A stretch of DNA of 64,000 nucleotides from positions 284,208,001 to 284,272,000 of the forward strand of contig OZ024743.1 of assembly GCA_964016885.1 (NCBI GenBank), given 5' to 3'. Every line of letters starts with the position of its first letter. Position 1 is the first letter of the stretch. The DNA is from Eledone cirrhosa (lineage: Eukaryota). Made by a program: the position numbers and the translations under genes. Positions 22,233-60,252 of the stretch are shown piece by piece. Under the pieces are notes generated by a model, which was not told the DNA's origin, did not search any database, and saw only the letters and a program-made list of their open reading frames with translations.

Positions 22233-22267
<35 letters not shown>

Positions 22268-22610: not shown

Positions 22611-22644
<34 letters not shown>

Positions 22645-24356: not shown

Positions 24357-24417
<61 letters not shown>

Positions 24418-24661: not shown

Positions 24662-24698
<37 letters not shown>

Positions 24699-25844: not shown

Positions 25845-25876
<32 letters not shown>

Positions 25877-29700: not shown

Positions 29701-30096
29701 CAGGCTGAAGCCGAAGCATATATATAATATGCACCACCCCCACCCTCCCATGAGGACAGGCTATAGCATACATCTAGTGAAGTCTCCAGCCTACACTGTT
29801 TTTTCCAGCACAGATTTTCTCAACTTGTGTTCCTTTGTCATCTCCTCTGTGAGGTTCAGCATTTTGAAATCTGCACTCATTACTTCAGCTTAGGTAGGTT
29901 TTTCTCTACTGCAGCTTCCTTCCATTGCATGATGAACATTTTCTGGAGATGTACATTTGTATATAGTGCAAAGTAGGGTCGTTATATTTAATATGCATAA
30001 CGAGAGTGTATATGAAAACACATATAAACATATATTATACGTTTATATACACTAAACATTTGAGTAGCCAAGCTAACATATATAGATAATATATAT

Positions 30097-30223
30097 AATT
30101 GTTACTACTTTAGGCACAAGGCCAGCAAATACCCAGTGCATTACTGGTTCTTTATTTTATTGACCCCATAAGGATGAAAGGCAAAGTCAACCTCAGCGGG
30201 ATTTGAACTCAGATCGTAAAGGA
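30097..30223 (-). mobile_element. SINE family A lacking its 5' part, abutting the (TA)n nest
   Basis: Matches the other A copies up to tcagatcgtaaagg, then runs into (TA)n. Confidence 0.85.
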
Positions 30224-30225
30224 TA

Positions 30226-30503
30226 TTATATATATATACATATAATATATACATATATATTATATATATATATAATATATATATACAATATATTATATAT
30301 ATATAATATATATACATATATATAATATATTATATATATATACATATATACATATATATAATATATTATATATATATACATATAATATATTATATATATA
30401 TATATATAATATATTATATATATATAATATATATAATATATATATATATAATATATTATATATATATAATATATAATATATATATATATATATATACATA
30501 TAT

Positions 30504-30542
<39 letters not shown>

Positions 30543-30543
30543 T

Positions 30544-30582
<39 letters not shown>

Positions 30583-30590
30583 TTATATAT
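30226..30590. repeat. (TA)n-rich array
   Basis: Direct reading. Confidence 0.95.
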
Positions 30591-33307: not shown

Positions 33308-34320
<1,013 letters not shown>

Positions 34321-34448
34321 GGAAAGTTATATTTAAATTGTTGGGTTAACAACGAGTAAATATTTATAACTGATATAAAAGCACTCAACAAGTATTTGGA
34401 GTATATTTATGATATTAAATAAATGGAAACTATATTTATAAAACCATA

Positions 34449-34520
34449 TTTATTTCGTTATATATATTTCAGGGATATCATATTAACAATATGTTATGCC
34501 TTCTTCAGACAAAATACAAT
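34449..34520 (-). ncRNA. Type I hammerhead ribozyme-like motif in a ~275-bp island (34321-34595) inside (TA)n
   Basis: tattttgt CTGAAGA aggcataacatatt-gtt-aatatgatatccct GAAA t-atat-a TA acgaaata. 8-bp stem I (one G-U), long stem II, palindromic loop III, AUA site. Confidence 0.75.
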
Positions 34521-34595
34521 ATAAACAGTCTTATAAATAAATAGATACGACATACCTTTCAATCACCTTGCATTTGGGAGGTTGATTTGGCAGTT

Positions 34596-35270
<675 letters not shown>

Positions 35271-37668
35271 CAATTAAGGCCAAAAAGCAGGCTTGGAAAG
35301 TATGGCGGGATGGGGGAAGTAGAGTAGACTATCAAGTGGCCAGGAGGGAAGCTAGGAGAGAAGTGTACTTAGCAAGAAGGGAAGCTGAGGAAAGAAAGTT
35401 CAAGCATGTTCTACAACGCGATGACCAAAAACGTGAGGTGTTCAGGATTGCCAGGCAATGCGTCAAGGAAAACCGTGATATTGTCGGGGAGAAGTGTGTA
35501 CTTAACGATGATGGCATACTTGCCATCACCGACACTGATAAGAAGGTAGCTTGGAAGTGTCACTATGAAAGGCTACTAAACGAGGAGAATAAATGGGAGA
35601 AAGACAGTCTCCCCCATATCGACCCGATAGAGGGACCTGCAGTGTTAGTCGAGGGGAGTATAATAAGTAAAGCAATCAAGGATATGAAGACTGGTAAGGC
35701 GGCTGGGCCTTCGGAAATAGTTGCTGAGATGCTGAAGGCATCTGGCACGGTGGGACACACCATGGTCACCCGCATAGTTAACCAAGTCGTACAGAATGGG
35801 GTTGTTCCGAAGGACTGGCATAGCAGCATCATCGTTAACTGTTATAAGGGTAAAGGAGACGCCCTAGATAGGAGTAACTATAGAGGCATTAAATTAATCG
35901 ACCAGGTCATGAAGGTCACGGAAAAAGTAATAGCGCAACTAATCAGAGAGAGAATTGATCTAGATGAAATGCAGTTCGGGTTTGTGTCAGGCAAAAGCAC
36001 CACAGACGCTCTTTTCATAGTACGACAACTACAGGAGAAGTACCTAGCTAAAGGTAAACCCCTCTACTTAGCTTTTGTCGACCTGGAGAAAGCCTTCGAC
36101 AGAGTCCCCCGCTCCATTATCTGGTGGGCTCTTAGAAAACTAGGCGTTGACGAATGGCTTGTGAGGGCTATACAAGCCATGTATAAAGAAACAGTCAGCA
36201 AGGTTAGAATTAACAACGAATATAGTGAAGAGTTTAGCGTAAAAGTTGGCGTCCATCAGGGCTCTGTTCTCAGCCCCCTACTATTTATTATTGCCCTTCA
36301 GGCTATAACAGAGGAGTTCAAGACAGGCTGCCCATGGGAACTCCTATACGCAGACGACCTGACACTCATAGCGGAATCAATGGCCGAGCTAGAGAAGAAA
36401 TTCCAAACATGGAAGCACGGCCTAGAGTCAAAAGGACTTAAAATTAACCTGGCTAAGACCAAAGTTCTAGTTTGTAGGAAAGAAAACAAGGCGGCGGTCC
36501 CTTCTGGGAAATGGTCGTGCTCGGTATGTAGGAAAGGCGTAGGTAGAAACTCCATCTTATGTCCTAAATGCAAAGTATGGGTGCATAAAAGATGTAGTGG
36601 GATCACAGGTAAGCTAACTAAGAACATAGACTTTACATGTGGCCGGTGTTCTGGTGCAATAAGTAGCAGCAAGTGCCCACAAAATACTAGCTCTTTCAAT
36701 TGCGCAGAGGGTTCTATAGAAATAGTGGACAGCTTCCGTTACCTGGGCGATAAAATCAGCAGTGGGGGAGGGTGCTCTGAAAGTACTGTAGCTAGAGTCA
36801 GAACTGGTTGGAAAAAGTTCAGAGAGCTGATACCACTATTAGCTGCTAAAGGGTTCTCCCTAAAAATGAAAGGCAGGTTGTACGATGCCTGCATACGAAC
36901 AGCAATGTTGCATGGTAGTGAGACCTGGGCATTGTGTGCAGAGGATATACGCAGACTAGAGAGGAACGAAGCTTGCATGCTCCGCTGGATGTGTAACAGT
37001 AATATACGTGAACGGCAAAGCATAAACGAACTAAGGAAAAAATTAGAGATAAGAGGAATCAGATGTTGTTTACTCGAGAGAAGGCTGCGTTGGTATGGAC
37101 ACGTGATGCGCATGAAAGTCGATAGCTGTATTACAAAGTGCAGGGCAATAAAGATAGACGGTAGCCACGGAATAGGCAGACCTAGAAAAACATGGGATGA
37201 GCTGATAAACTCCGACCTCACACACTTACACCTCTCCAAGACAATGTCACTGGACCGTGACCTTTGGCGGTACTCAGTAACAGAGAAGACCCGCCTTGCC
37301 AGTAGGCATCTCTAACAAACTACACCCCGTCCCGCCACCCCCCCCCACCCCATCCACACCACCCCGTTCTATGTAAAGTTATGTTGGTGCCGCGCCATCC
37401 AGGCCGAAACAAATGAGATCGTGTAGGTGTCACGACAAAAAAACACACAGTCCACGCTGTAATGTGGCCGTGTAGGCAACACGGTAAAAACCTCCCAGAC
37501 CCACACTGTAAATGTGGTTGGTGTTAGGAAGGGCATCCAACTGTAGAAAACCTGCCAGACAGTCCTATGCGAGCAAGACAATCACTCTTGCCTCAAGTGG
37601 GACTACCCCCGTCCAAACCCATGCAAGCGTGGAACACGGACGTTAAACGTTGATGATGATGATGATGA

Positions 37669-37672
<4 letters not shown>
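35271..37672 (+). mobile_element. Young RTE LINE, 5'-truncated, with uninterrupted RT reading frame
   Basis: Starts abruptly in (TA)n at caattaaggcc and ends (GAT)n-(TA)n. Confidence 0.95.
35336..37315 (+). CDS. RTE reverse transcriptase with embedded PHD-type finger (no endonuclease, truncated copy)
   Basis: 659-aa open frame with KAAGP, NYRGI, QFGF, FVDLEKAFD, GVHQGSVLSP, YADD, FRYLG, RLRWYGHV and GRPRKTW motifs. Expression not implied. Confidence 0.85.
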   Translation: MARREARREVYLARREAEERKFKHVLQRDDQKREVFRIARQCVKENRDIVGEKCVLNDDGILAITDTDKKVAWKCHYERLLNEENKWEKDSLPHIDPIEGPAVLVEGSIISKAIKDMKTGKAAGPSEIVAEMLKASGTVGHTMVTRIVNQVVQNGVVPKDWHSSIIVNCYKGKGDALDRSNYRGIKLIDQVMKVTEKVIAQLIRERIDLDEMQFGFVSGKSTTDALFIVRQLQEKYLAKGKPLYLAFVDLEKAFDRVPRSIIWWALRKLGVDEWLVRAIQAMYKETVSKVRINNEYSEEFSVKVGVHQGSVLSPLLFIIALQAITEEFKTGCPWELLYADDLTLIAESMAELEKKFQTWKHGLESKGLKINLAKTKVLVCRKENKAAVPSGKWSCSVCRKGVGRNSILCPKCKVWVHKRCSGITGKLTKNIDFTCGRCSGAISSSKCPQNTSSFNCAEGSIEIVDSFRYLGDKISSGGGCSESTVARVRTGWKKFRELIPLLAAKGFSLKMKGRLYDACIRTAMLHGSETWALCAEDIRRLERNEACMLRWMCNSNIRERQSINELRKKLEIRGIRCCLLERRLRWYGHVMRMKVDSCITKCRAIKIDGSHGIGRPRKTWDELINSDLTHLHLSKTMSLDRDLWRYSVTEKTRLASRHL

Positions 37673-37725
<53 letters not shown>

Positions 37726-37817
37726 TATATATATAATATATATATAAATATAATATATATATATAATATATATATATATATAAATATATATATATATAAA
37801 TATATATATAAATATAA

Positions 37818-37913
<96 letters not shown>

Positions 37914-37952
37914 ATATATATATATATTATATATATATATATAATATATATA

Positions 37953-38014
<62 letters not shown>

Positions 38015-38055
38015 ATATATATATATATATTATATATATATATATAATATATATA

Positions 38056-38086
<31 letters not shown>

Positions 38087-38449
38087 AATATAACGAAGGA
38101 AATGTGGTAAGGAACCAGGTGGACCATAACGCACCAAAGTACTCAATACTTGAGGTAGTAGAGTGGGTAATAGGAACCAGTAAGACCCCGACAGCTGAGC
38201 TCAAGCCGTTTCGACGGCTAATTCTGGACTCTATTCTGGACTATATTATATATATATATATATATATAATATATATAATTATATATATTATATATTATAT
38301 TATATATATATAATTATATATATATATATATAATATCTATTCTGGACTATATTATATATATATATATATATAATATATATATATATAATATATATATAAT
38401 ATATATATATAATATATATATATATATAATATATATATATATAATATAT

Positions 38450-38490
<41 letters not shown>
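37673..38490. repeat. (TA)n arrays containing a 150-bp unique island (38092-38243)
   Basis: Direct reading. Confidence 0.9.
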
Positions 38491-38499
<9 letters not shown>

Positions 38500-38544
38500 T
38501 AAACAAATAATGAACAAACAATTCCTTATATTAAACAAAAAAAG

Positions 38545-38699
38545 TTCACTATTTAACGATCGTTTCTAGGGCATATATGTGTTATAATTGGTATGCATAT
38601 TTAACAGATCTATGTACAAAATTATACAAAATTATACAAATTATCAAGATTAAATATACATACCTAACTCATATATACGCCGTCTTCAGAAATAATGAA
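38545..38699 (-). ncRNA. Type I hammerhead-like motif with long stem II (left-arm copy)
   Basis: Reverse complement of 41533-41687. Confidence 0.65.
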
Positions 38700-39459
38700 G
38701 TATATTTATTGATAATAACAACAATTCAAAATGTCAGTTCAAAATTGACCAATGAAAACACAAAGGGTTAAAAGCAGTTTGGTGTGTGTATATACATGCA
38801 AAAACCTTACACATATTTTACAATAATGTGTGTATAATTTGTATGTGTATACTAAAAAGATGGATGTAAACACAAAATTTCAAGGTTAATATCTCTGTAA
38901 GCTTAATGCGCTGATAAGATACGCAAAGATACTTATGGAGTCAAGCATATAAATATATTTTTTTCATACTCACACATATCAGTATAATCACACATACATG
39001 TGCGTATATGCATAAATATACACATAACCACGAACATACAAACACACACACTCCCCCACTCACATTTATATATGTGGATATAAAATCATAAGCAAATAGA
39101 AATTAAGTCACTCACATAAAAACACTGGTACACACATTTCAAGATCAAGATACAGAAATTAGGTGGGAGGGGGGGGGGAGGGGTCAGTATTAGATTGTCA
39201 GACCAGACAGCCTAAAATAAATGTATCTATAAATTAAGAAAAATAAAAAAATAAAAATAAAAACAATAAAATAAATGTACATACACATACAGATATACAT
39301 ACACATACATACATGTACACGCACATAGAGATATCTACACATACATACATACACACATACCTATACTGTCATACACACACATACATTTACACGAACATAC
39401 ACATACACATATAAAAAGATATAAATACACACACACTCACGCGCAACACATACACACAT

Positions 39460-39502
<43 letters not shown>

Positions 39503-39523
39503 TATACACACACACATAGACTC

Positions 39524-39555
<32 letters not shown>

Positions 39556-39663
39556 ATACAAACATATATATCCCCACACTCATACCACCATAAATATACA
39601 TACAAACACCCACATGTATATATATATATATATATATACATATCCACATACACACACGTACAC

Positions 39664-39694
<31 letters not shown>

Positions 39695-39733
39695 TACACA
39701 TATATATATACACACACATAAAAAACAGACATG

Positions 39734-39764
<31 letters not shown>

Positions 39765-40022
39765 TTCATTACTCTTATATATACACATAGTATATATACA
39801 TACACAACCTCACTTATACACATATACACATAAGTTATATTACAATAATAATAAAGAATAATATATATATATATATATACATATATACACACATATACAT
39901 ATATACATATACATATATATATACACACACATACATACACATACATACATACACCTAAACATATACATACATAAATATACACATACGAATAAAGACATAT
40001 ATTCACACATAGATACGCATAT

Positions 40023-40058
<36 letters not shown>

Positions 40059-40679
40059 ATATATATACACATACATACATACATATATATACACATATAT
40101 ATACACATACACACACACACACACACACAGACACACATACACACTCACATATACATATATATATATGTGTATGTGAGTGTGCGCAAATACATATATATAT
40201 ACACACACACATACAAACACACACAAACACATACATATGCATATATGCACACACACACACATGTATCACATAGATACGAAGATAAACATATAAATAGAGA
40301 GACATACGAATATATACAGAACCCATATACACATACATACAACCACGCATATACATATATATACATATATACACATATATATATTCCTATATACAAGCAT
40401 ACACATACATACACATATATACATATACATACACATATACATACCACACATTCACATACACATATATATATAATACATATATATACATATATATACATAC
40501 ATATGTATGTACAATCAATATGTGTATATATATATGTGTATGTGTATATGTATGTATATATATATATATATGTGTACGTGTGTGTATGTGGATATGTATA
40601 TATATATATATATATATACATGTGGGTGTTTGTATGTATATTTATGGTGGTATGAGTGTGGGGATATATATGTTTGTAT

Positions 40680-40711
<32 letters not shown>

Positions 40712-40732
40712 GAGTCTATGTGTGTGTGTATA

Positions 40733-40773
<41 letters not shown>

Positions 40774-41532
40774 ATGTGTGTATGTGTTGCGCGTGAGTGT
40801 GTGTGTATTTATATCTTTTTATATGTGTATGTGTATGTTCGTGTAAATGTATGTGTGTGTATGACAGTATAGGTATGTGTGTATGTATGTATGTGTAGAT
40901 ATCTCTATGTGCGTGTACATGTATGTATGTGTATGTATATCTGTATGTGTATGTACATTTATTTTATTGTTTTTATTTTTATTTTTTTATTTTTCTTAAT
41001 TTATAGATACATTTATTTTAGGCTGTCTGGTCTGACAATCTAATACTGACCCCTCCCCCCCCCTCCCACCTAATTTCTGTATCTTGATCTTGAAATGTGT
41101 GTACCAGTGTTTTTATGTGAGTGACTTAATTTCTATTTGCTTATGATTTTATATCCACATATATAAATGTGAGTGGGGGAGTGTGTGTGTTTGTATGTTC
41201 GTGGTTATGTGTATATTTATGCATATACGCACATGTATGTGTGATTATACTGATATGTGTGAGTATGAAAAAAATATATTTATATGCTTGACTCCATAAG
41301 TATCTTTGCGTATCTTATCAGCGCATTAAGCTTACAGAGATATTAACCTTGAAATTTTGTGTTTACATCCATCTTTTTAGTATACACATACAAATTATAC
41401 ACACATTATTGTAAAATATGTGTAAGGTTTTTGCATGTATATACACACACCAAACTGCTTTTAACCCTTTGTGTTTTCATTGGTCAATTTTGAACTGACA
41501 TTTTGAATTGTTGTTATTATCAATAAATATAC

Positions 41533-41687
41533 TTCATTATTTCTGAAGACGGCGTATATATGAGTTAGGTATGTATATTTAATCTTGATAATTTGTATAA
41601 TTTTGTATAATTTTGTACATAGATCTGTTAAATATGCATACCAATTATAACACATATATGCCCTAGAAACGATCGTTAAATAGTGAA
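41533..41687 (+). ncRNA. Type I hammerhead-like motif with long stem II (right-arm copy)
   Basis: ttcattattt CTGAAGA [c ggcgtatat..ggtatgtatatttaa...ttaaatatgcatacc..atatatgcc cta] GAAA c-gatc-g TT aaatagtgaa. 10-bp stem I, palindromic loop III, non-canonical base of stem II. Confidence 0.65.
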
Positions 41688-41875
41688 CTTTTTTTGTTTA
41701 ATATAAGGAATTGTTTGTTCATTATTTGTTTAATATTTTATCTTGACTCTGTATACCGTTTATCTTTCACCGAAAGTGGATTTTCATTACATCTCTTCTT
41801 TCCATGATATCCGGAATACATTGAGTTCTTCATACGGATTGGACACTACCGTAAACTCTTGGTAGATTTATCTAC

Positions 41876-42007
41876 ATATATATATATATATATATAATAT
41901 ATATATATAATATATATATATATAATATTATATATAATATATATATATATAATATTATATATAATATATATATAATATATATATATAATATATATATATA
42001 TATAGAT

Positions 42008-42050
<43 letters not shown>

Positions 42051-42116
42051 TATAATATATATATATAATATATATATATATATATTATATATATATAATA
42101 TATATATATATAATAT

Positions 42117-42169
<53 letters not shown>

Positions 42170-42177
42170 ATATATAT

Positions 42178-42209
<32 letters not shown>

Positions 42210-42247
42210 ATATATATATATATATAATATATATATATATATAACAT

Positions 42248-42325
<78 letters not shown>

Positions 42326-42606
42326 TATATAATATATATATAATATATATATATATATAATATATATATAATATATATATATATAAAATATATATATATA
42401 TATATAATATATATATATATAATATATATATACATAATATATATATATATATATATAATATATATATATATATATAATAATATATATATATATAATATAT
42501 ATATATATATATAATATATATATATATAATATATATATATATATAATATATATATATATATATAATGTATATATATATAATATATATATATAATATATAT
42601 ATATAT

Positions 42607-42641
<35 letters not shown>

Positions 42642-42738
42642 ATATATATATAATATATATATATAATATATATATATATATATAATATATATATATATAA
42701 TATATATATATATAATATATATATATATATATAATATA
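41876..42738. repeat. (TA)n array with TAA interruptions
   Basis: Direct reading. Confidence 0.95.
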
Positions 42739-45738
42739 GGCGACCTAAATGGTCACGTTGGACAACATTGTGACGGCTACGACGAAATCCATGGAGGCTA
42801 TGGGTTTGGTACTAGAAATGAGGAAGGCTCCAGAATCCTGGAATTCTGTGACGCAAATAACCTAACTATCTGTAACACTAACTTAAAAAAACGTGACAAT
42901 CACCTGATCACTTATAGATCCGGGGAACACACAAGCCAGGTAGATTATATCCTTACCAGAAGACATGACAGAGTGTCTGTTGTAAACACTAAATCTCTCC
43001 CCCATGAAGAATGCACCTCCCAACATAGATTGATAATTAGCGACCTCATAGTCAGGACGAGACGTACTCGACAGCAGAAGAGGACTATCCTCAGGAGAAA
43101 AATATGGAAGCTAAAGGACCCCACAGCCAGAAATAAATTTAAAAGCATATTACTTGATGCATTCGACAGTAAGGAAGAGCATTTAGAGTCGGACAATATA
43201 GAGGGACAGTGGGAATTTCTGAAAGCAAATCTGCTGTTGGCGACAGACGAAGTCTGTGGCTGGAGCAGGCCTGTAGGCAGGAGGAGAGTAACATGGTGGT
43301 GGAACAGTAAGGTGGAGGGGTCAATTAAGGCCAAAAAGCAGGCTTGGAAAGTATGGCGGGATGGGGGAAGTAGAGAAGACTATCAAGTCGCCAGGAGGGA
43401 AGCTAGGAGACAAGTGTACTTCGCAAGAAGGGAAGCAGAGGAAAGAAAGTTCAAGCATGTTCTACAACGCGAGGACAAAAAACGTGAGGTGTTCAGGATT
43501 GCTAGGCAATGTGTCAAGGAAAACCGTGATATTGTCGGGGAGAAGTGTGTACTTAATGATGACGGCGTACTTGCCATCACCGACGCTGATAAGAAGGTAG
43601 CTTGGAAGTGTCACGATGAAAGGCTACTAAATGAGGAGAATAAATGGGAGAAAGACAGTCTCCCACACAGAGACCCAATAGAGGGACCAGCAGTGTTAGT
43701 CGAGGGGAGTATAATGAGTAAGGCAATCAAAGATATGAAGACGGGTAAGGCGGCTGGGCCTTCGGAAATAGTTGCTGAGATGCTGAAGGCATCTGGCACG
43801 GTGTGACACACCATGGTCACCCGCATAGTTAACCAAGTCGTACAGAATGGGGTTGTTCCGAAGGACTGGCATAGCAGCATCATCGTTAACTGTTATAAGG
43901 GTAAAGGAGACGCCCTAGATAGGAGTAACTATAGAGGCATTAAATTAATCGACCGGGTCATGAAGGTCACGGAAAAAGTAATAGCGCAACTAATCAGAGA
44001 GAGAATTGACCTAGATGAAATGCAGTTCGGGTTTGTGTCAGGCAAAAGTACCACAGACGCTCTTTTCATTGTACGACAACTACAGGAGAAGTACCTAGCT
44101 AAAGGTAAACCCCTCTACTTAGCTTTTGTCGACTTGGAGAAAGCCTTCGAAAGAGTCCCCCGTTCCATTATCTGGTGGGCTCTTAGAAAACTAGGTGTTG
44201 ACGAATGGCTTGTGACAGCTATACAAGCCATGTATAAAGAAACATCCAGCAAGGTTAGAATTAACAACGAATATAGTGAAGAGTTTAGCATAAAAGTTGG
44301 CGTCCATCAGGGCTCTGTTCTCAGCCCCCTACTATTTATTATTGCCCTTCAGGCTATAACAGAGGAGTTCAAGACCGGCTGCCCATGGGAACTCCTATAC
44401 GCAGACGACCTGACACTCATAGCTGAATCAATGGCCGAGCTAGAGAAGAAATTCCAAACATGGAAGCACGGCCTAGAATCAAAAGGACTTAAAATTAACC
44501 TGGCTAAGACTAAAGTTCTAGTTTGTAGGAAAGAAAATAAGGCGGCGGTCCCTTCTGGGAAATGGTCATGCTCAGTGTGTAGGAAAGGCGTAGGTAGAAA
44601 CTCCATTTTATGTCCTAAATGCAAAGTATGGGTGCATAAAAGATGTAGTGGGATCACAGGTAAGCTAACTAAGAACATAGATTTTACATGTGGCCGGTGC
44701 TCTGGTGCAATAAGTAGCAGCAAGTGCCCACAAAATACTAGCTCTTTCAATTGCGCAGAGGGTTCTATAGAAATAGTGGACAGCTTCCGTTACCTGGGCG
44801 ATAAAATCAGCAGTGGGGGAGGGTGCTCTGAAAGTACAGTAGCTAGAGTCAGAACTGGTTGGAAAAAGTTCAGAGAGCTTATACCACTATTAGCCGCTAA
44901 AGGGTTCTCCTAAAAATGAAAGGCAGGTTGTACGATGCCTGCATACGAACAGCAATGTTGCACGGCAGTGAGACCTGGGCATTGTGTGCAGAGGATATAC
45001 TCAGACTAGAGAGAAACGAAGCTTGCATGCTCCGCTTGATGTGTAATAGTAATATACGTGAACGGCAAAGCATAAACAAACTAAGGAAAAAATTAGAAAT
45101 AAGAAGGATCAGATGTTGTTTACTCGAGAGAAGGCTACGTTGGTATGGACACGTGATGCGCATGAAAGTCGATATCTGTATAACAAAGTGCAGGGCAATA
45201 AAGATAGACGGTAGCCACGGAATAGGCAGACCTAGAAAAACCTGGGACGAGCTGATAAACTCCGACCTCACACACTTACACCTCTCCAAGACAATGTCAC
45301 TGGACCGAGACCTTTGGCGGTACTCAGTAACAGAGAAGACCCGCCTTACCTAAATACATAGTAAAACCTACTACAGCCAGTAGGCATCTCTAACAAAATA
45401 CACCCCGTCCCACCACCACCACCCCCACCCCATTCTATGTAAAGTTATGTTGGTGCTGCGCCATCCAGGCCGAAACAAATGAGATCGTGTAGGTGTCACG
45501 ACAAAAAAACACACAGTCCACGCTGTAATGTGGCCGTGTAGGCAACACGGTAAAAACCTCCCAGACCCACACTGTAGATGTGGTTGGTGTTAGGAAGGGC
45601 ATCCAACTGTAGAAAACCTGCCAGACAGTCCTATGCGAGCAAGACAATCACTCTTGCCTCAAGTGGGACTACCCCCATCCAAACCCATGCAGGCGTGGAA
45701 CACGGACGTTAAACGTTGATGATGATGATGATGATGAT
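42739..45738 (+). mobile_element. Young RTE LINE, truncated within the endonuclease; one stop (43804) and one frameshift (~44910)
   Basis: Begins at GDLNGHVG; ORFs 42973-43806, 43813-44913 and 44916-45353; (GAT)n tail. Confidence 0.95.
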
Positions 45739-45765
45739 ATATATATAATATATATATATATATAA

Positions 45766-47985
45766 AACTTCAAAAAACGAGACAATCACCTGATCACCTA
45801 TAGATCGGGGGGAACACACAAGCCAGGTAGATTATATCCTTACCAGAAGACGTGACAGAGTGTCTGTTGTAAACACTAAATCCCTCCCCCATGAAGAATG
45901 CACCTCCCAACATAGACTGATAATTAGCGACCTAATAGTCAGGACGAGACGTACTAGACAGCAGAAGAGGACTATCCTCAGGAGAAAAATATGGAAGCTA
46001 AAGGACCCCACAGCCAGAAATAAATTTAAAAGCATACTACTTGATGCTTTCGACAGTAAGGAAGAGCAATTAGAGTCGTACAATATAGAGGAACAGTGGG
46101 AATTCCTGAAAGCAAACCTGCTGATGGCGGCAGATGAAGTCTGTGGCAGGAGCAGGCCTGTAGGTAGGAGGAGAGTAACATGGTGGTGGAACAGTAAGGT
46201 GGAGGGGTCAATTAAGGCCAAAAAAGCAGGCTTGGAAAGTATGGCGGGATGGGGAAGTAGAGAAGACTATCAAGTCGCCAGGAGGGAAGCTAGGAGACAA
46301 GTGTACTTCGCAAGAAGGGAAGCAGCGGAAAGAAAGTTCAAGCATGTTCTACAACGCGAGGACCAAAAACGTGAGGTGTTCAGGATTGCTAGGCAATGTG
46401 TCAAGGAAAACCGTGATATTGTCGGGGAGAAGTGTGTACTTAATGATGATGGCGTACTTGCCATCACCGACGCTGATAAGAAGGTAGCTTGGAAGTGTCA
46501 CTACGAAAGGCTACTAAATGAGGAGAATAAATTGGAGAAAGACAGTCTCCCCCACATCGACCCAATAGAGGGACCAGCAGTGTTAGTCGAGGGGAGTATA
46601 ATAAGTAAGGCAATCAAAGATATGAAGACGGGTAAGGCAGCTGGGCCTTCGGAAATAGTTGCTGAGATGCTGAAGGCATCTGGAACGGTGGGACACACCA
46701 TGGTCACCCGGATAGTAAACCAAGTCGTACAGAATGGGGTTGTTCCGAAGGACTGGCGTAGCAGCATCATCATTAACTGTTATAAGGGATCACAGGTAAG
46801 CTAACTAAGAACATAGATTTTACATGTGGCCGGTGCTCTGGTGCAATAAGTAGCAGCAAGTGCCCACTAAATACTAGCTCCTTCAACTGCGCAGAGGGTT
46901 CTATAGAAATAGTGGACAGCTTCCGTTACCTGGGTGACAAAATTAGCAGTGGGGGAGAGTGCTCTGAAAGTACAGTAGCTAGAGTCAGAACTGGATGGAA
47001 AAAGTTCAGAGAGCTTATACCACTATTAGCCGCTAAAGGGTTCTCCCTAAAAATGAAAGGCAGGTTGTATGATGCCTGCATACGAACAGCAATGTTGCAT
47101 GGCAGTGAGACCTGGGCATTGTGTGCAGAGGATATACGCAGACTAGAGAGGAACGAAGCTTGCATGCTCCGCTGGATGTGTAATAGTAATATACGTGAAC
47201 GGCAAAGCATAAACGAACTAAGGAAAAAATTAGAAATAAGAGGGATCAGATGTTGTTTACTCGAGAGAAGGCTACGTTGGTATGGTCACGTGATGCGCAT
47301 GAAAGACGACAGCTGTATAACAAAGTGCAGAGCAATAAAGATAGATGGTAGCCACGGAGTAGGCAGACCCAGAAAAACCTGGGACGAGCTGATAAATTCC
47401 GACCTCACACACTTACACCTCTCCAAGACAATGTCACTGGACCGAGACCTTTGGCGGTACTCAGTAACAGAGAAGACCCGCCTTACCTAAATACAAAGTA
47501 AAACCTACTACAGTCAGTAGGCATCTCTAACAAAATACACCCCCGTCCCACCACCCCCACCCCATCCACACCGCCCCTTTCAATGCAAAGTTATGTTGGT
47601 GCCACAACATCCAGGCCGAAACAAATGAGATCGTGTAGATGTCACGACAAAAAACACACAGTCCACGCTGTAATGTGGCTGTGTAGGCAATACGGTAAAA
47701 ACCTCCCAGTCCCACACTGTAAATGTGGTTGGTGTTAGGAAGGGCATCCAGCTGTAGAAAACACACCAGACAGTCCACGCTGTAATGTGGCCGTGTAGGT
47801 AACACGGTAAAAACCTCCCAGGTCCACACTGTAAATGTGGTTGGTGTTAGGAAGGGCATCCAGCCGTAGAAAACCCGCCAGATAGTCCTATGCGAGCAAG
47901 AAACCACTCTTGCCTCAAGTGGGAAAACGCCCGTCCAAACCCATGCAAGCGTGGAATATGGATGTTAAATGATGATGATGATGAT
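45766..47985 (+). mobile_element. Young RTE LINE with ~750-bp internal deletion of the RT core
   Basis: Junction tataaggg|atcacagg at 46788; duplicated 3'UTR module; (GAT)n tail. Confidence 0.95.
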
Positions 47986-48007
47986 ACACACATATCTATA
48001 TATATAT

Positions 48008-48372
48008 ATATAAGTATGTACACGTACATACATATATGTATACAGACGCACAGTAGTATGTATATATATATACATACATGCACACATATATATATGCATG
48101 TATGGATTCACCGAACATTTATTATAATGCTCGTTGTGTTTGTAAACAAACATCCCGTATTAAGCCATAGTGTCTAGCGTTCCTTTGTCAGTGTTGAACA
48201 AACGAGCAACGATGGTTGCTAGACACTACGGCTTAATACGGGATGTTTGTTTACAAACACACTGAGCATTATAATAAATGTTCGGTGAATCCATACGTGC
48301 ATATATGTATATATATATACATACTACTGTGCGTCTGTATACATATATGTATGTACGTATACATACTTATAT
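48008..48372. repeat. Hairpin/MITE-like inverted repeat (arms 48008-48178, 48218-48372)
   Basis: ggattcaccgaacatttattataatgctc...aaacatcccgtattaagcc.tagtgtctagc and its reverse complement, with a 39-nt spacer. Confidence 0.9.
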
Positions 48373-49117
48373 TTAAGTAACAGCCGTACTAAGAGTGGGA
48401 AATGAAATTTTGTTTCATTTTTTTCCGTTTATATATATATATATATATATATAAATATGCACATGCAAACAGAGACTAATAAATAATAATTGAAGTGATA
48501 TATATTCATTTTTCACAGTGAGACAAATATAGAAATTTGTAAGAGAATATTATTCTTTTATTATCCTCTTTAAGAAGGAATAAGCAATTAAGTTGAGACC
48601 TTCAAAATTTGAACTCAGAGTGTATGAGCAGTGCAAGGCATTCATTTCATCACTCAGCTACTTATGTTATTCCAAATACATGCCGCAAATAATAAACAAA
48701 CGATTTAGATTTATTGACACACACTTTTGCATAGACAGTAGCAGCCTCCAAACTCTACAAAACTTCACATGAAATAATAGTCTGTAAAAGAGCAGTTAAA
48801 ACTACTTGATATCAAAAATTAAAAAATAAAAATATGAAAAAAAAAACAGTTGGAAGGAAAATAAACTAGAAGTGGACGAGCTTCCAATATTATACTAAAT
48901 ACCAGTATAGCTAAAAATATGTATCAATAAAAAAAAAACACATAAAAATATAACAACCATCAGCTAATAAGAATACATACACTGCAAAGACAGACGAAAT
49001 GCATATATGCACAATATATATATATATATATTTTTTTTTCTATATGAAAACTGCAGTGATGTGAAACTTTAGTAGGAAAGAAAATAGAAAAGTCAGTTAA
49101 AATAACTAAATATATAT

Positions 49118-49178
<61 letters not shown>

Positions 49179-50400
49179 GTGTGTGTGCATATATATAAAA
49201 GATAAATTTAATGTAGGTATAACTACAGTTTTAAATTTTAAGTCCCAATGTCCCCAAAAAAACCCAAATATGAATACATTCTGTTATTCTCTTTGTATAC
49301 AAAAACATATAAGGAGTACCTTTACATTTTTCATATTAAATGACTACTAATCAGATAACAAGTACCTCTTACTTTTTGCCTATGAAGAGGATTTGTAGCA
49401 AAACACTATTTATATTAAACACAAACCAGAAGTCAACTGAAATGGCCAGTGCAATTTGCATAACATGCATTTGTTGAAGTGGTGATTAATTAAATATCAA
49501 AATCTCTTCAGGCCTAACTACACAATATGGTCACTAGATAAAACTCAAGAACATACATTGAAATGAGAGATATTTACTTCACACATTAAACCATGGTAGA
49601 CAGAACTTGTTAGCCATGGTTGGTAGTCTATCTTGGAGAAGGACAACTCTGATTTCCAAACTGAGGTAGATGGCACTCCTTAGTTACTTTGTATAACAAC
49701 TTCATCCTTGGCTTGGTAGCCAGCTTCTAAGTAATGATTGGACAAGGATTTGGGACCCACTGATGTCACTATTTTCCCAATAAGTATCATGGACACAGCA
49801 TCATATAGATTAGTGTTGGTGCAATTTCTATAGACCCCCAACCCTCATGAATGAGGACGGGAAGACACTAAACTAGCAGTTACCAACACACTTCATTGTG
49901 TATACTCATAAAGTAATTAATCTACACACACATAAATACACTAGGTGCTATCAGAAGACTTTTAAACTGTTCATGTTTTGATTGTACTGTTCAATTGAAA
50001 TGCATACAGTTGATGATTATTAGTAGAAAACCTACTGAGTTAGTCTGCAAATAGGTTTCATGCTATTTGCACATGTGTGTGTGTATATATATGGTGGCTG
50101 TTGGCTCCCCTCTCTCTGGCCCTAAGGTCAGCTGCTGACCTGTAATTTCTATCCCAGACAGTTTTGTCAGACTTCAAACAATCTTTAGGCTTGTTCTGTG
50201 GCCTCCTATGGTCCATTATGAGATATATCTTGATAGTCAGACACATGGACTGCTGAAACATCCCCACATTGGTTATCATAATCTCCAAAGACATTTTTGG
50301 TGAAAACATTCAAGCAGTCTTTTTGATGGGTTACCCATGTGTTGTAATGACACACACCTCATACACACTCAACTTAGTACTTTGCTTTAATTTGCAATAG

Positions 50401-50945
50401 CACTAACACAGCATGCTATAGACTAAAGCCATATATGACCCATGTGAATATGTTTGTATATAGTGAACAAACATTTCATCTCACTGTGTGTATTTAAGTT
50501 GCAAACATGTCACAGTTACTTCAACAACCAGAATAAGAGATGTATTTCAGTGTCCTTATTTATCCTCAGTGTATGTTCACTTATACTGGGATGCTGAAAT
50601 ATGGAAGACAATATCTCCTTGTAGAATTTTGTAAACAAACTATTCATGGTGAAAACCTATTTATATTTTGTGCAAGAATGACCAGTTAGTTTGAACTAGG
50701 GATAAACACTAACACAGCAAGATTCAAAATAAAATCAGATATGAATCCATTTACAATAAATTTACATATAATAAACATACATCTAGTCTTGTTGGGAGTA
50801 TTTAAGCTGCAAACATATTGAATTTACATCAGCAACCAGAGTAGGAGTGGCAGATGTATTTCAATGTCTTTACACATTGTCAGTGTACACTCAATCATTT
50901 TTGGGTGATGAAGTTTGAAAAACAATATATTTTTTGTAAACAAAT
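50401..50945 (+). repeat. Old direct duplication (~50401-50640 and ~50707-50945)
   Basis: Shared blocks cactaacacagca, gtatttaag.tgcaaacat, caaccaga, agatgtatttca.tgtc and gtaaacaaa in the same order. Confidence 0.6.
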
Positions 50946-51615
50946 TATTAGTACTTAAATGTATGTCCCCTTGTGACTACACTCAAGTTCCTCACCTACC
51001 AAAAGTGATGTTATCCCCACACGTTTCTTCACTTAATTTACTTATTAGTAAAACATGAAAATGAACTACATGGATAAATGAAGTGATCAACCACATGTAG
51101 TTTTATGTCATATACGAATATTGTAGCTCACAGTAATGATTTTCATTGGCTGGAGCAACAATCACTTTTGTTTATACAAACTTATGAGTTTCATTACAGT
51201 GCAAACATCTGAAAATATATCCCTAATCTATTTAATCATATATATATATGATGGCTGCAAACTCTGCTAAGAGTATTGCAATCAGATTATAGAGTTTGGT
51301 GCACTTTTAGGCTAAGGCCAGCCACACGAACCTGTAACATAACTTGAACAAGCAATGCATGTGCTTTGAAGGTTTTTTAAATGTCGAAAGGCCTTGCACT
51401 CGACCAATCTCACTCTCTGAGCATCGAAAACACCACCCAAAAAGGAGAACTGGTCAACATCATTGGATACTTCCGAAGCTGCAGGGTTTTTTTTCAGAGT
51501 TTCTCTCTCCTAGAAAGGTGTTGTGGCAACAACTGGGAGCCTTTCACTCTCAGGTGAAAAAAAAAAAGTACTATTTGGATGGCTGAGTTCCTCCGCCCTT
51601 TGTATTCATCCCATG

Positions 51616-51665
<50 letters not shown>

Positions 51666-52039
51666 CATACACACACACATATATATATATATGTTTACAT
51701 ATATATATATACTATTGCTAACATTATTTTTGATGCTGGTTTTTTTCTTCTTCCTCTTCTTCACTAAGTTTCTTCAGCTGGTTTTGTTACCTTAATATTT
51801 ACAACCCCACCTGAACTGTAGCAACCTCTAAAACATAAGCAAATTTAATATATATGAATAAGGAATGGTGTAGTCATGCAAGAAGACACTATAAAATAGC
51901 TTATAAAATAGGGTGAAAACTCTTAAAGACGGAAAAAAAAAGTTACCATCAGCCGCTATGAAGCCCATATCTCCCAGAATACACACACACATAGAATGAT
52001 GACATATATATATATATATATATAGTTTTAATATAGATG

Positions 52040-52090
52040 AGATTCTACAGGACTAGAAATGTTTCATTCTTTAGAAATCATCAGGAATCT
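52040..52090 (-). ncRNA. Type I hammerhead-like motif
   Basis: agattc CTGATGA t-ttc-taaa-gaa-t GAAA ca-tttctagtcc-tg TA gaatct. Perfect 6-bp stem I, GUA site. Confidence 0.65.
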
Positions 52091-52560
52091 GATGATTTCT
52101 AAAACTTTTATACTCTGCTATGTATTGATTCCCTTACTTACTGTGGTTACCTCCAATTCAACCCGGAATAACTTAACTTATATACACATACACATAGAAT
52201 GATGACATATATACATATATATATATACACACACACATACACGTGCATGTGTATATAACCATAACTACTATATGCCTTGCTCTATCATAAAAACAGAACA
52301 CTATCCATGGACCAAACAAATACCACCAAAACACCCAATCCAGACCCAACCTCCCATATACATACTACACAGAACGTGGTAAAAATACTAATCACCTCCA
52401 TCAGAACCATACTGAAACACACTCATTCATAACAATAACCAAAACCATTCTAATTACTAGCAGATATTATCAGACTGTAGCCATCTTATTACATGTTTCT
52501 GTACATCATACACACATAAACACACATGTATATGCATATATATATACACACACATATATA

Positions 52561-53064
52561 TTGTTTTACTTTGGGAGGTCATGCTGCCATTAAAATCACA
52601 CACACTAGTTGAGTTTCACTCCAATTTTTATTTCAGTTTTATTATTAATCAGATAACTAATCCATTTCTCCATCAGGTTGGTAACTAAATGGTTATTTAA
52701 TAATTGTTATGTTTAATTGTCAAAATATTCTATCACACATTGACAATTAAATAACCATCTGGTTACTAAACTAACTGAGGAATAGATTAGTTACCTGACT
52801 AATAATGTTTTCTGATTTAGGCACAAGGGAAAGTAAATTAAATTGACTCCAGTGCATTACTGGTACTTCATTTTATCAACCCTGTAAGGATGAAAGGCAA
52901 AGTTAACCTCAGAACGTAAAGAGACGTAACTATGCTGCAAAGCATGTTGTCCAACACTTTACTCCACTGCCAATCCACCACCCTAGTTACCTAACTAATA
53001 ATAAAACCAAAGTGAAATTTAACTGGTGTGTGTATTTTATTGGCAACATCACTCTCCTAAACAA
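52561..53064. mobile_element. Old MITE-like foldback element interrupted by a SINE
   Basis: Diverged arms (gcca.taaaat.cacacac.agtt / aactggtgtgtgtattttattggc; ttaattgtcaa / ttgacaattaa) with TA flanks. Confidence 0.6.
52807..52983 (-). mobile_element. SINE family A with 19-bp target-site duplication
   Basis: TSD tagttacctractaataat at 52788-52806 and 52984-53002. Confidence 0.9.
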
Positions 53065-54010
53065 TATATAACAATATATTTCAACATATAATTTCACATC
53101 AAGATTGCAAAACAATATATATATATGAATGAATAAAAGTATATATGAACACAAATTAGCAGCCATTTCAGTTTATTGAATTTTTTTTTTGTTTTGTTAT
53201 TTTCTTTAATGATAAATGTAGGCTAATAATCATTTTTTGAAATAGTGAAGTAGCAGCAAAACACTAAAGCAATTTCAGCTTCATAAGAATATGGTAAATA
53301 TTGAAACAAAGAGTATTATAGTTTTCAAGTCAATGTCTTTGAGGGTTTATCATCTGAAATTTTAATCTAATCTGTTTTGATAATATGCATTGAGGTTACA
53401 ATGGAAACAATTTATCATAAACTTAATCTAAATTACTGACAGCAAAAATATTAGGTTAGCTTTATTATTTTTGTCTTTATCCACCCATGCTTTCATAAGA
53501 AATATGCAATATCTTATATATTTTCCATATGCATTATGTATTATTCTATTTGGTTTTAATTGTTGATGTTTTAATTTTAATTGCATTCTAAGTAAAATAT
53601 GAAGCTGTAAAAAGATAAAGAAAATTTCACCCCAATGTGGAATATATATATAAAAATGTAACTGAGCAATATTAAATATATACTTTAAATCAGATATAGT
53701 TTCAATGAATTAAACAATATAGTTTCAATGAATTAAAACCAATTCATCGCATTGCTCTATATTCACTCTATGCTGAGAAATATTCAGATGTTCTACCATT
53801 TCTGACTAATTTTGCTGAAAAATCTCTGAAATGAGATACTTCTTAGATATTTACCTATTAAAAATCGTTGAAAGACAGACTGATTGATATATTTGGAAGG
53901 GCTGCTCTAAGTAAGTCAAGCACTAGCATACCGATGGCACTGTATTCTAAGGTCATAGTCGACATGCTTAAAGTTAAAATTAAGCACCAATTGATGCTGG
54001 TAATTCTCAC

Positions 54011-54016
54011 CTGGGG
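54011..54016 (-). CDS. Cav1: Candidate 6-nt Cav1 microexon in the IIIS3-S4 linker (adds Asn-Pro)
   Basis: Minus strand ttctttttcatcttcctttctttgtccaaccag|CCCCAG|gtgaga: long polypyrimidine tract, CAG acceptor, strong donor. Frame-preserving after the phase-2 end of the 101-nt exon. Confidence 0.55.
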
Positions 54017-56177
54017 CTGGTTGGACAAAGAAAGGAAGATGAAAAAGAATTGATGATTTTTTTCTTCATGGATAAAGCAAAAGAAAAAAAAATTACTTGG
54101 CCGAAACATTTATTGAATAGACTACTTGTGTAACAAAAGGAGCTGTTATCACTTGAACTATCGATCATACTAACATTTTTCTTTAATGTATTTGACATTA
54201 ACAAGATTAAGAACAAGACTATATAATGATAATTTTTACTTAGTTAGCTAATGAATACATGGTTTTAGAAAGACTAAAAACAACAATGTGAGCATTTTCA
54301 TAACCCCATCTATCTGGATATTTGCTCATTAAGGTGTACCTGAGATAGATAGGATATTTCTGTTAGCATGGACACAATATACAGCAACCTGTAATCAGAT
54401 ATATTAATATCATATTGGAAAAAAAACAGTGTAACAGTAAATAATAATTTTTTTTTAAGATCTACGAAATATTAATTCATTAAGAAGAACATAAAAACCC
54501 CCATAGAACAAAATAATCATGAAATGTTCTGCAGGGTCAAATGTATGCAAGTATCAGTATTGTTTTCATAGAATAGAGGATTGTTTCAATATAAATTCAG
54601 TTTTGATACTAATTAAATTAATTAAATATAAAAAAAAATATCTAGAGACACAGGAAATATTGCTTTTGACCAAGTTTGTATGGTTAATGAATTACATATA
54701 AAAATAAGAGTTATTATTTTTTTTTAATTGTCCAAAATATCTTTTTGCTCAATAACACTAATTTTTAATAACTTGACTTTGATAAAACTAATTTCCCCTG
54801 AATATTCTTTGTTTTTTTTTGTATTTTAGATGATTATTTTGAAAAAAAAAAAAAATATTTAGACTTTAGTAAGAAAAGAAAGAATTGTTAGAAAATTCAA
54901 ACAAAAAGAAACAAATATGCAGCAAAAATATATTACACCCACATACACATATATTGACATATATGGACAAATATTGACAATATTTTTCACATAAATAACA
55001 ACGTTCAAGTTTGTTGGAATGCAAAATTGAAGGTGTGTGAAACAGCTGCCTTTCTTTGGAGCATTAGAAATACCAGTAAGGCAAAGTTTTTCATCAGGTT
55101 TTCACATACATTTTGTTGTTTGCATACATTTTCATATCAACTCTGAAAGCAGCGAATTTCAATAAAGTTTTGTAAAATAGGCTAATACTTGGTTAAAAAC
55201 CATAGTTTATCCAATGTAACTCTAAAGTGGGGACTGTCTGAGTTTGGTATTGGATATTGGGTCAACTGGTAATTGAATCTAAATTGAGCAGCTTCAACAT
55301 ACATCCAGACTGCTGTCAGAAGTGTTTAACAAAGTAGATAATGTACAAAATAAATGTTTTCTTTGCCCTTAGGGGATACTTGCTGGTTTTATGGCATGAA
55401 GTGAATATTTGCCTATTGTATCACACAGATGATTCAGCATTTATTCTTGACAGTTTGGAGAACTAAGACATTGTAGAACAAAATGTTCTATTCAGAAATA
55501 CAAAACACCAGCGGCTAATTTACTTCTGTAGTTGATGTAAGCTGGAGTTTATCTTTGCTTTCATAGTTTTAAATAGTTTGAAAACCAGATATTGTTCTCT
55601 CTAACTAGTAATGCCATTCTTTTATAAATTTTGTCAGTGCTTTCACTGGTTACAGTAAATAAAAAAAAACACTTCTCCATATTACCATTTTTTTTACATC
55701 CAGGTGAACTGGAACATTGTGGATGATAATACCTCTGGTGACAGAACTTAAACCATTGGCCTGTTGAGTGTTAATGAACTATTGTGGATGTTGAAAGGGT
55801 ACTGGGTGCAAAAGAATAGTACTGAGTGTAATCAATACTAAATATATAGAGTATTACAAAGTGTAATATAGATAACGTGTACTGAAAGAATAGAGATGAA
55901 GTACAATGTGGACAAAGGGACACAAAGAACAAAGAGACGCATTAGCAACATAATTGCTGCAATGTAAAAATTATAAAATTTTAAACATGAAATAAGTAAA
56001 TAACATAAATGAACACATGCACACAGAGACACACAAACACATATATATACATATAAACTCATGCTTAATAAATATAGGTATACAGTTCTATGTAATAATA
56101 TTCACCCTAAACACAGCCACACAAACATATTCACAGTTATAACCTATTGTTTAATGAACAATTAAAAATAAACTCAC

Positions 56178-56278
56178 TTGATGGATATAAGAGATACTCC
56201 AACAACTAACAAGTCCAGCAAGTTGAAATAGCTGCGACAAAAAGAGCCTTTGTGAAGAACTAATCCATAGCTAATAAG
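56178..56278 (-). CDS. Cav1: Cav1 exon encoding the IIIS2-S3 linker and IIIS3
   Basis: ttttgcttacag|...|gtgagt, 101 nt, translates [33 protein letters not shown] plus 2 nt (phase 2). Not in the ORF track. Confidence 0.95.
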
Positions 56279-57675: not shown

Positions 57676-57735
57676 CTTGATGATGATTTCAATAGTAAAT
57701 ACACTGGTAAAAATATAGTCAAAATAATTTAATAT
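57676..57735 (-). CDS. Cav1: Cav1 exon encoding repeat III S2
   Basis: ttttcttacag|...|gtaagt, 60 nt, translates ILNYFDYIFTSVFTIEIIIK in frame with the previous exon. Not in the ORF track. Confidence 0.95.
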
Positions 57736-60122: not shown

Positions 60123-60252
60123 TTTACTTCTTTCCTCAGATTGATCAAGTGGATCTTCAGCAGCTAACATAGCACTACTGATAAGGATGCAAGCCAAAAC
60201 AAAGTTTCCAAAATAATTGTGATTGCAGACGAAATGGCAAAAAACTCGGAAT
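60123..60252 (-). CDS. Cav1: L-type voltage-gated calcium channel alpha-1 subunit, internal exon encoding repeat III S1
   Basis: Translates (R)[43 protein letters not shown], the IIIS1 ...SS..LAAEDP signature of Cav1 channels. Bounded by tttaaatag| and |gtaagt on the minus strand; 130 nt. Confidence 0.95.

What the first reader, a model, noticed from the sequence alone, without database searches (positions are those of the whole stretch)
54011..54016. Candidate 6-nt Asn-Pro microexon in the Cav1 IIIS3-S4 voltage-sensor linker
Seen: a strong polypyrimidine tract/CAG and a CAG|GTGAGA donor enclose just CCCCAG, 2.1 kb downstream of a 101-nt phase-2 exon. Inclusion reads ISI-N-P-(S/R) and keeps frame. 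From memory, the matching vertebrate Cav1.2 exon is 107 nt (=101+6); this needs checking. Known: S3-S4 microexons (NP in Cav2.1, ET in Cav2.2, repeat IV) tune gating and toxin sensitivity. Inferred: a convergent, possibly neural-regulated microexon that gene predictors would miss.
Basis: partly seen in the sequence, partly recalled or inferred. Interest (0 to 1): 0.75.

Follow-up and report, generated by a model that had tools for sequence, protein, structure and literature searches.

The report
Six-base exon in octopus calcium channel
An octopus-type L-type calcium channel gene holds a conserved six-base exon that a relative's gene models splice in, and that would add two amino acids (Pro-Ser) to a voltage-sensor loop, likely as an optional switch predicted to fine-tune channel opening, much like known mini-exons at the same spot in the sister channel family.

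Summary
Real. CCCCAG (54016-54011, minus strand) lies between an acceptor and a donor in the 56.9-kb IIIS3-S4 intron of an octopod Cav1 gene. The next exon lies outside the window. Skipping reads ISI-N-NEAIS and inclusion ISI-N-P-S-NEAIS, so the net insert is Pro-Ser, not Asn-Pro. The 69-nt core shows no listed difference in 3 of 3 other species laid. All 5 Octopus sinensis RefSeq isoforms already include it, so predictors do not always miss it; an O. vulgaris model and 5 cuttlefish-type sequences lack it. Inclusion gives the linker length found in 392 of 434 parsed Cav1 proteins, because the upstream exon is two codons short (101 vs 107 nt). The intron is ancient and shared with Cav2, whose exon 24a is a closer precedent than the repeat IV exons cited. 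Two clams and a ribbon worm carry an optional 18-nt insert at the same place in Cav1. No RNA could be laid: skipping within octopus, neural regulation and any gating effect are untested, and the eMIC motif is absent. The scan noted this exon before in another octopus genome (e1-9806271). New member of a known kind.

The parts
54011..54016 (-). 6-nt microexon CCCCAG (phase 2 to phase 2); net insert Pro-Ser
   Evidence: INPSNE in 5 of 5 O. sinensis RefSeq isoforms
54017..54063 (-). acceptor: pyrimidine tract, 45-nt AG-free zone, CAG
54005..54010 (-). donor GTGAGA
   Evidence: 10.2 bits
53890..54113 (.). conserved intronic block around the microexon; 53961-54029 has no listed difference in X9, X14, X16
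   Evidence: flank divergence
56178..56278 (-). IIIS2-S3 exon, 101 nt, two codons shorter than the usual 107-nt exon
54017..56177 (-). intron upstream of the microexon, 2,161 nt
1..54010 (-). intron downstream of the microexon, 54,737 nt in all; runs 726 nt past the window's low end to the IIIS4 exon
57676..57735 (-). IIIS2 exon, 60 nt
60123..60252 (-). IIIS1 exon, 130 nt

Best explanation
CCCCAG is a conserved six-base exon in the repeat III S3-S4 intron of an octopod Cav1 gene, likely spliced as an optional cassette, whose inclusion would lengthen the outer loop of voltage sensor III by Pro-Ser and is predicted to shift gating slightly. Shown: splice signals, frame, conservation, a relative's gene models that include it, coleoid sequences that lack it, and an upstream exon two codons shorter than usual. 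Inferred: coleoids lost two codons at the end of S3, so the skipped channel has a linker two residues short (D-to-K spacing 20) and inclusion returns it to the usual 22. Inferred: the conserved 200-nt block binds splicing regulators that set inclusion by tissue or stage, with inclusion probably common in octopus. Predicted by analogy to Cav2.1 exon 24a: a few-mV change in activation or kinetics. Not tested.
For: Rank 2 of 188 pairs and no 6-nt pair in 30 shuffles. Only unit able to give N-P-S. Contigs of three other organisms list 2, 4 and 2 substitutions over about 200-220 nt and none in 53961-54029, against 25 of 129 and 13 of 163 in neighbouring blocks of X9. Inclusion in 5 of 5 O. sinensis isoforms; short form in the O. 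vulgaris model, 2 cuttlefish models and 3 Logan proteins about 99% identical to the cuttlefish ones, whose 2,000-residue frames on 7.5-kb contigs imply spliced RNA. So the short channel mRNA is made in some coleoids. The same place carries an optional 6-residue insert in Mya (6 of 8 isoforms), Mercenaria (8 of 10 parsed) and Lineus (9 of 13 parsed). The two S3-S4 introns of repeats III and IV (57 and 102 kb) are far longer than the 0.4-7 kb introns around them, and the repeat IV one holds three cassettes that vary among O. sinensis isoforms. The insertion point falls in the predicted loop 693-697 between helices S3 and S4 (local pLDDT about 64). Cav2.1 +SSTR shifts activation (PMC11580629, passages).
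Against: No RNA reads were laid, so no species is shown to make both forms. All 5 O. sinensis isoforms include the exon although they differ at the repeat IV cassettes, which fits near-constant inclusion. The O. vulgaris and cuttlefish models may simply have missed a 6-nt exon, and Logan contigs drop rare variants. Whether cuttlefish have the exon in their DNA is unknown. No UGC in -22..-4; YCAY x3 (P 0.25) and GCATG (P 0.12) are not above chance. SFMG in Cav2.2 is reported to cause no apparent functional change (PMC11580629). Listed isoforms of scallops, oysters, mussels, abalones, pond snails, a chiton, Drosophila and Limulus show no insert (only part of the larger clusters was listed). X5 did not lay and X6 did not cover the site.
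Confidence: 0.58

Rival explanations
1. A constitutive (or nearly so) microexon in octopods: it is always included and simply supplies two residues that bring the linker to the usual length, either as compensation for the coleoid two-codon loss or because a new intron cut six bases off the old 107-nt exon.
For: 5 of 5 O. sinensis isoforms include it; inclusion gives spacing 22 as in 392 of 434 parsed proteins; 101+6=107; tiny exons can need conserved intronic enhancers even when constitutive (own knowledge).
Against: The short form is made as RNA in a cuttlefish-type animal, so it is tolerated. The O. vulgaris model lacks it. The octopus exon end I-AA resembles the L-GA or L-AA end deduced for clams and Lineus, which favours a deletion upstream over a split exon (inference).
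Confidence: 0.32
2. A recursive (zero-length) splice site: the AG ending CCCCAG serves as acceptor and regenerates a donor, so that a 57-kb intron is removed in steps and no residue is added.
For: The AG|GTGAGA junction scores 15.1 bits, among the top ten pairs, in a long intron; it would also be conserved.
Against: The upstream CAG scores higher (17.5), and O. sinensis models carry P-S, which only this unit can supply. The site lies just 2.2 kb into the intron. Both uses could coexist.
Confidence: 0.06
3. A chance splice-like motif inside an element conserved for another reason (for example an enhancer), picked up by one annotation pipeline.
For: A higher-scoring decoy exists in the same intron, and shuffles give 0.2 frame-keeping pairs at this score; the RNA support behind the RefSeq models was not seen.
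Against: Conservation is centred on the splice sites; frame, phase and restored length all fit.
Confidence: 0.04

Closest known systems
Cav2.1/Cav2.2 exon 24a (SSTR, SFMG) and Aplysia Cav2 exon 27 (AFDS)
   Same: Short frame-keeping cassette in the repeat III S3-S4 linker (PMC10657410 passage; PMC11580629 passages). The host intron is at the same place: this genome's Cav2 gene splits codon D+14 in phase 2, as Cav1 does in most animals.
   Different: Host is Cav1; 6 nt instead of 12; Pro-Ser; inclusion restores the usual length instead of exceeding it; tissue pattern and regulator unknown (24a is Nova2-regulated, PMC12149502 passage).
Cav2.1/Cav2.2 exon 31a (repeat IV S3-S4; NP and ET, letters and 6-nt size recalled)
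   Same: Short S3-S4 insert; two-residue size as recalled.
   Different: Other repeat and other paralog; the net insert here is Pro-Ser; no toxin effect tested.
Cav1.1 exon 29 and equivalents in repeat IV of L-type channels
   Same: S3-S4 splicing in a Cav1 channel that shifts activation (PMC13661669 passage). The same octopod gene has three repeat IV cassettes.
   Different: Repeat IV and 19 residues versus repeat III and 2 residues. No vertebrate Cav1 repeat III cassette turned up in the proteins parsed or the searches made.
18-nt optional insert of Mya, Mercenaria and Lineus Cav1 (RefSeq isoforms)
   Same: Same gene and same linker position, present in some isoforms and absent in others.
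   Different: Six residues (LGGAN or IAGGD core) added to a linker of usual length; no likeness to Pro-Ser; its exon structure was inferred from proteins, not seen in DNA.
eMIC (Srrm3/4, Srrm234)-dependent neural microexons
   Same: Tiny, frame-keeping, conserved flanks, AG-free zone, ion-channel host (PMC8797185 passages).
   Different: No UGC near the acceptor; neural inclusion not shown.

Membership tests
Cav1 (L-type) alpha-1 gene | Exons match L-type repeat III better than Cav2 and continue into a full Cav1 C-terminus | tested here: met
   (Cav1 E 1e-12 to 3e-15; Cav2 7e-7 or weaker); exon map with an O. sinensis Cav1
Microexon (3-27 nt, limits recalled) | Canonical acceptor and donor around 3-27 nt, frame kept | tested here: met
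Microexon (3-27 nt, limits recalled) | Conserved exon and splice sites in other species | tested here: met
   3 of 4 runs laid, none with a listed difference in 53961-54029
Microexon (3-27 nt, limits recalled) | Present in spliced mRNA | tested here: inconclusive
   Indirect only: 5 of 5 O. sinensis RefSeq isoforms; no RNA holder listed
S3-S4 cassette exon of the exon 24a kind | Lies in the repeat III S3-S4 loop, in the D+14 phase-2 intron | tested here: met
   the upstream junction is at D+12 because the exon is two codons short
S3-S4 cassette exon of the exon 24a kind | Both included and skipped within one species | tested here: inconclusive
   Included in O. sinensis models, absent from O. 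vulgaris and cuttlefish sequences; never both in one coleoid species
S3-S4 cassette exon of the exon 24a kind | Descent from the same ancestral exon as Cav2 24a | tested here: inconclusive
   Same intron, but no likeness in size or residues; no 12-nt candidate passed a simple pattern scan of this genome's 2.5-kb Cav2 intron
S3-S4 cassette exon of the exon 24a kind | Changes gating or toxin sensitivity | not testable with these tools
   Needs electrophysiology
eMIC/SRRM4-dependent neural microexon | UGC close to the 3' splice site | tested here: not met
   None in -22..-4; nearest at -63
eMIC/SRRM4-dependent neural microexon | Neural-biased inclusion lost without eMIC | not testable with these tools
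   No RNA holder listed
Recursive splice site | Zero-length AG|GT use with nothing kept in mRNA | tested here: inconclusive
   Motif present, but P-S is kept in O. sinensis models; nascent RNA not available

The most novel reading that the evidence does not exclude
The repeat III S3-S4 intron, older than the Cav1/Cav2 split, is a recurrent tuning site in Cav1 as well as Cav2. Coleoids trimmed S3 by two residues, and octopods gained a six-base exon that switches voltage sensor III between a shorter-than-usual and the usual length by tissue: a splice switch whose included form rebuilds the ancestral geometry, mirrored by an 18-nt cassette in clams and ribbon worms.
Probability: 0.3. Interest if true: 0.62.

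Novelty: new member of a known kind. Interest (0 to 1): 0.4.

Why it matters
It extends S3-S4 microexon tuning of voltage sensor III, described for Cav2, to Cav1, and gives a natural two-residue pair for testing how a very short S3-S4 loop affects an L-type channel. Spacing 20 occurred only in coleoid sequences among 434 parsed proteins, so cephalopods changed a nearly fixed dimension of the channel. The site is also a benchmark for octopus annotation, since one model set has the exon and a close relative's lacks it. It is not a new mechanism: the exon already sits in RefSeq models and the principle is known.

Tried and rejected
RNA evidence: the one run search, made with a mostly intronic 2.6-kb stretch, listed no RNA holder; this says nothing about expression. 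X6 gave no cover of the site and X5 did not lay on the narrow stretch, although its contig spans it; neither is evidence of absence. Extending the upstream exon or the S4 exon cannot give N-P-S (stop; V-P-F-S). Other mutually exclusive 6-nt options in the intron: none among the 25 best pairs. Regulatory motifs (UGC, YCAY, GCATG) not above chance. A 12-nt exon-24a counterpart in this genome's Cav2 intron: none passed a simple pattern scan. Shorter-protein and representative searches brought no new cephalopod isoform. Only the skipped form was folded (whole-model pLDDT 58, pTM 0.36), because no included form of 1,200 residues or less was held; only the local helix-loop-helix call is used. Longer linkers in single krill, bee, Artemia and mosquito proteins may be gene-model errors and were not counted as cassettes. 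Nine paper searches showed no description of this exon in the listings seen; one search was too loose to be informative.

Full report
Observation. The minus strand reads a pyrimidine tract, CAG, CCCCAG (54016-54011), GTGAGA. The exon 2,161 nt upstream is 101 nt (56278-56178), ends ISI+AA, and matches repeat III of L-type channels best. Two more repeat III exons lie at 57735-57676 and 60252-60123. The S4 exon is not in the window; fetching 200 kb of the own genome found it 727 nt past the low end, starting with one base and NEAISVVK. Skipping gives ISI-N-NEAIS, inclusion ISI-N-P-S-NEAIS. The Asn codon forms either way, so the net insert is Pro-Ser. The animal is called an octopod here only from protein similarity (exons mostly 82-100% identical to an O. 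sinensis Cav1).

More than chance. Weight matrices were built from 41 acceptors and 36 donors of this gene, after dropping 3 and 9 doubtful automatic calls by hand and adding one corrected donor. The site scores 17.5 bits, rank 2 of 188 pairs in the 56,904-nt intron; 30 local shuffles gave 0.2 frame-keeping pairs at that level on average and no 6-nt pair. The acceptor is below the gene's median and the donor at it. It is the only 6-nt unit in the intron that can give N-P-S.

Conservation. Contigs from 6 of the 20 listed runs were laid. In the narrow of 4 runs laid, each from a different organism label: they cover 53890-54113 or most of it with 2, 4 and 2 listed substitutions and a few small insertions, and none in 53961-54029 (X16 has depth 4.5). 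Neighbouring blocks of X9 differ at 25 of 129 and 13 of 163 letters. At the lower rate, no change in 69 nt has a naive probability of 0.003; the window was chosen after seeing the data. In the wide call X4, X5 and X9 spanned the site and X6 did not; its difference table was cut, so I draw no count from it.

Is it spliced? No RNA run was available. Proteins give indirect evidence. All 5 O. sinensis RefSeq isoforms (XP_036357314-17, XP_029634462) read INPSNE. The O. vulgaris model CAI9720191, 2 cuttlefish models (CAE1323310, CAE1323312) and 3 Logan proteins about 99% identical to the cuttlefish models read INNE. The Logan proteins have 2,000-residue frames on 7.5-kb contigs (14 contigs in all), so they come from spliced RNA: the short form is made in a cuttlefish-type animal. 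The Argonauta model starts at the S4 exon and is uninformative; 1 of 10 members of the octopus cluster was not read. No coleoid species shows both forms.

What inclusion does to length. Of 503 proteins held at that point, 434 were parsed. The distance from the S3 Asp (D) to the first S4 Lys was 22 in 392, 28 in 23, 20 in 6 (all coleoid), 21 in 5, 23 in 2 and other in 6 (isoforms are redundant). Genomic read-through frames show where the exon normally ends: of 147 new representatives 134 were parsed; 85 stop or run into intron-like letters right after residue D+14 as a GT donor in phase 2 would give, 4 fit a GC donor, 31 are spliced and 14 are other (inferred from residues). The octopod exon ends at D+12. 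Its end (I, AA) resembles the L-GA or L-AA end deduced for clams and Lineus, which suggests a two-codon loss within S3 rather than a new intron cutting off six bases; this is inference. In a model of the short cuttlefish form, S3 ends at residue 692, a five-residue loop follows and S4 starts at 698; the insert would fall between 694 and 695 (local pLDDT about 64, whole model weak).

An old and reused intron. This genome's Cav2 gene has its IIIS3-S4 intron at D+14, phase 2, so the intron predates the Cav1/Cav2 split (inference). In Cav2 it hosts exon 24a: SSTR in Cav2.1, SFMG in Cav2.2, AFDS in Aplysia (PMC10657410, one passage seen). +SSTR varies by brain region and shifts activation, while SFMG apparently has no effect (PMC11580629, passages); Nova2 promotes 24a (PMC12149502, passages). 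In Cav1, Mya (6 of 8 isoforms), Mercenaria (8 of 10 parsed; 1 fragment not parsed) and Lineus (9 of 13 parsed; 15 of 27 listed) carry an optional six-residue insert at this place. Listed isoforms of scallops (15 of 38), abalones (15 of 26), oysters (15 of 126), mussels (15 of 55), Biomphalaria, Physella, Lymnaea, a chiton, Drosophila (15 of 62) and Limulus do not. The repeat IV S3-S4 intron of the same octopod gene is 102 kb and holds 12-, 48- and 18-nt cassettes that vary among O. sinensis isoforms.

Regulation. Fly eMIC targets have UGC near the acceptor and long AG-free zones (PMC8797185, passages). This exon has a 45-nt AG-free zone but no UGC in -22..-4, whereas 2 of the 3 repeat IV cassettes and 9 of 41 constitutive exons do. 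Three YCAY upstream (P 0.25) and one GCATG downstream (P 0.12) are within chance. Neural regulation is therefore unsupported, not excluded.

Mechanism and odds. That it is a real exon: about 0.9. Optional cassette 0.58, near-constitutive 0.32, recursive site only 0.06, chance 0.04. The step to gating rests on analogy: S3-S4 splicing shifts activation in Cav1.1 repeat IV (PMC13661669, passages) and Cav2.1 repeat III. The NP and ET letters of exon 31a and their toxin effects are recalled; the passages seen in PMC7939481 only tie a repeat IV S3-S4 glutamate to toxin block.

Novelty. Nine searches showed no paper on this exon in the listings seen; the library lacks most subscription journals. A preprint that includes O. 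bimaculoides tissues (10.64898/2026.09.05.749416, passages) does not name Cav1 in its main text; its supplements are closed and may list the exon. The exon is already inside RefSeq models, and the scan noted it in another octopus genome (e1-9806271, an unreviewed AI note seen after my own tests; not counted as support). What this follow-up adds from its own calls: conservation in three further organisms, the shared intron position in Cav2, the clam and nemertean inserts, and the repeat IV array. Verdict: real, a new member of a known kind, moderate interest.

Noticed in passing
G000:C4:284185499-284185488, 284178918-284178871, 284109082-284109065 (L004, L005, L012): Three cassette exons (12, 48, 18 nt) in the 102-kb repeat IV S3-S4 intron of the same gene, matching the differences among O. 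sinensis isoforms; the 18-nt one has a GC donor; a cuttlefish-type transcript has a related 6-residue insert.
   Followed up: partly
P0129, P0132, P0290 and their clusters: Optional six-residue insert in the Cav1 IIIS3-S4 linker of Mya, Mercenaria and Lineus, with a similar Gly-Gly core in clams and the nemertean; possibly an old lophotrochozoan cassette.
   Followed up: partly
G000:C18:15364128-15361609 (L046): Cav2 IIIS3-S4 intron, 2,520 nt, same position and phase; no 12-nt counterpart of the Aplysia cassette passed a simple scan.
   Followed up: partly
G000:C4, 52,279 nt below the window's first base (repeat IV intron): A further AG-6nt-GT pair scoring 19.0 bits next to a TA repeat; not seen in any isoform held.
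   Followed up: no
window 17242-20028 and 42667-47487, with smaller pieces near 27150-31400: Broken reverse-transcriptase/endonuclease frames of LINE-like elements (label from recalled motifs) and long TA microsatellites make up much of the 55-kb intron.
   Followed up: no
window 58290-58480, 60550-60720, 61950-62130, 52840-52990: Copies of a short interspersed repeat in the introns; two copies give weak decoy exon pairs of 21 nt.
   Followed up: no
P0528, P0529, P0544, P0547: Some insect genomic frames read through this intron as if it had a GC donor.
   Followed up: no
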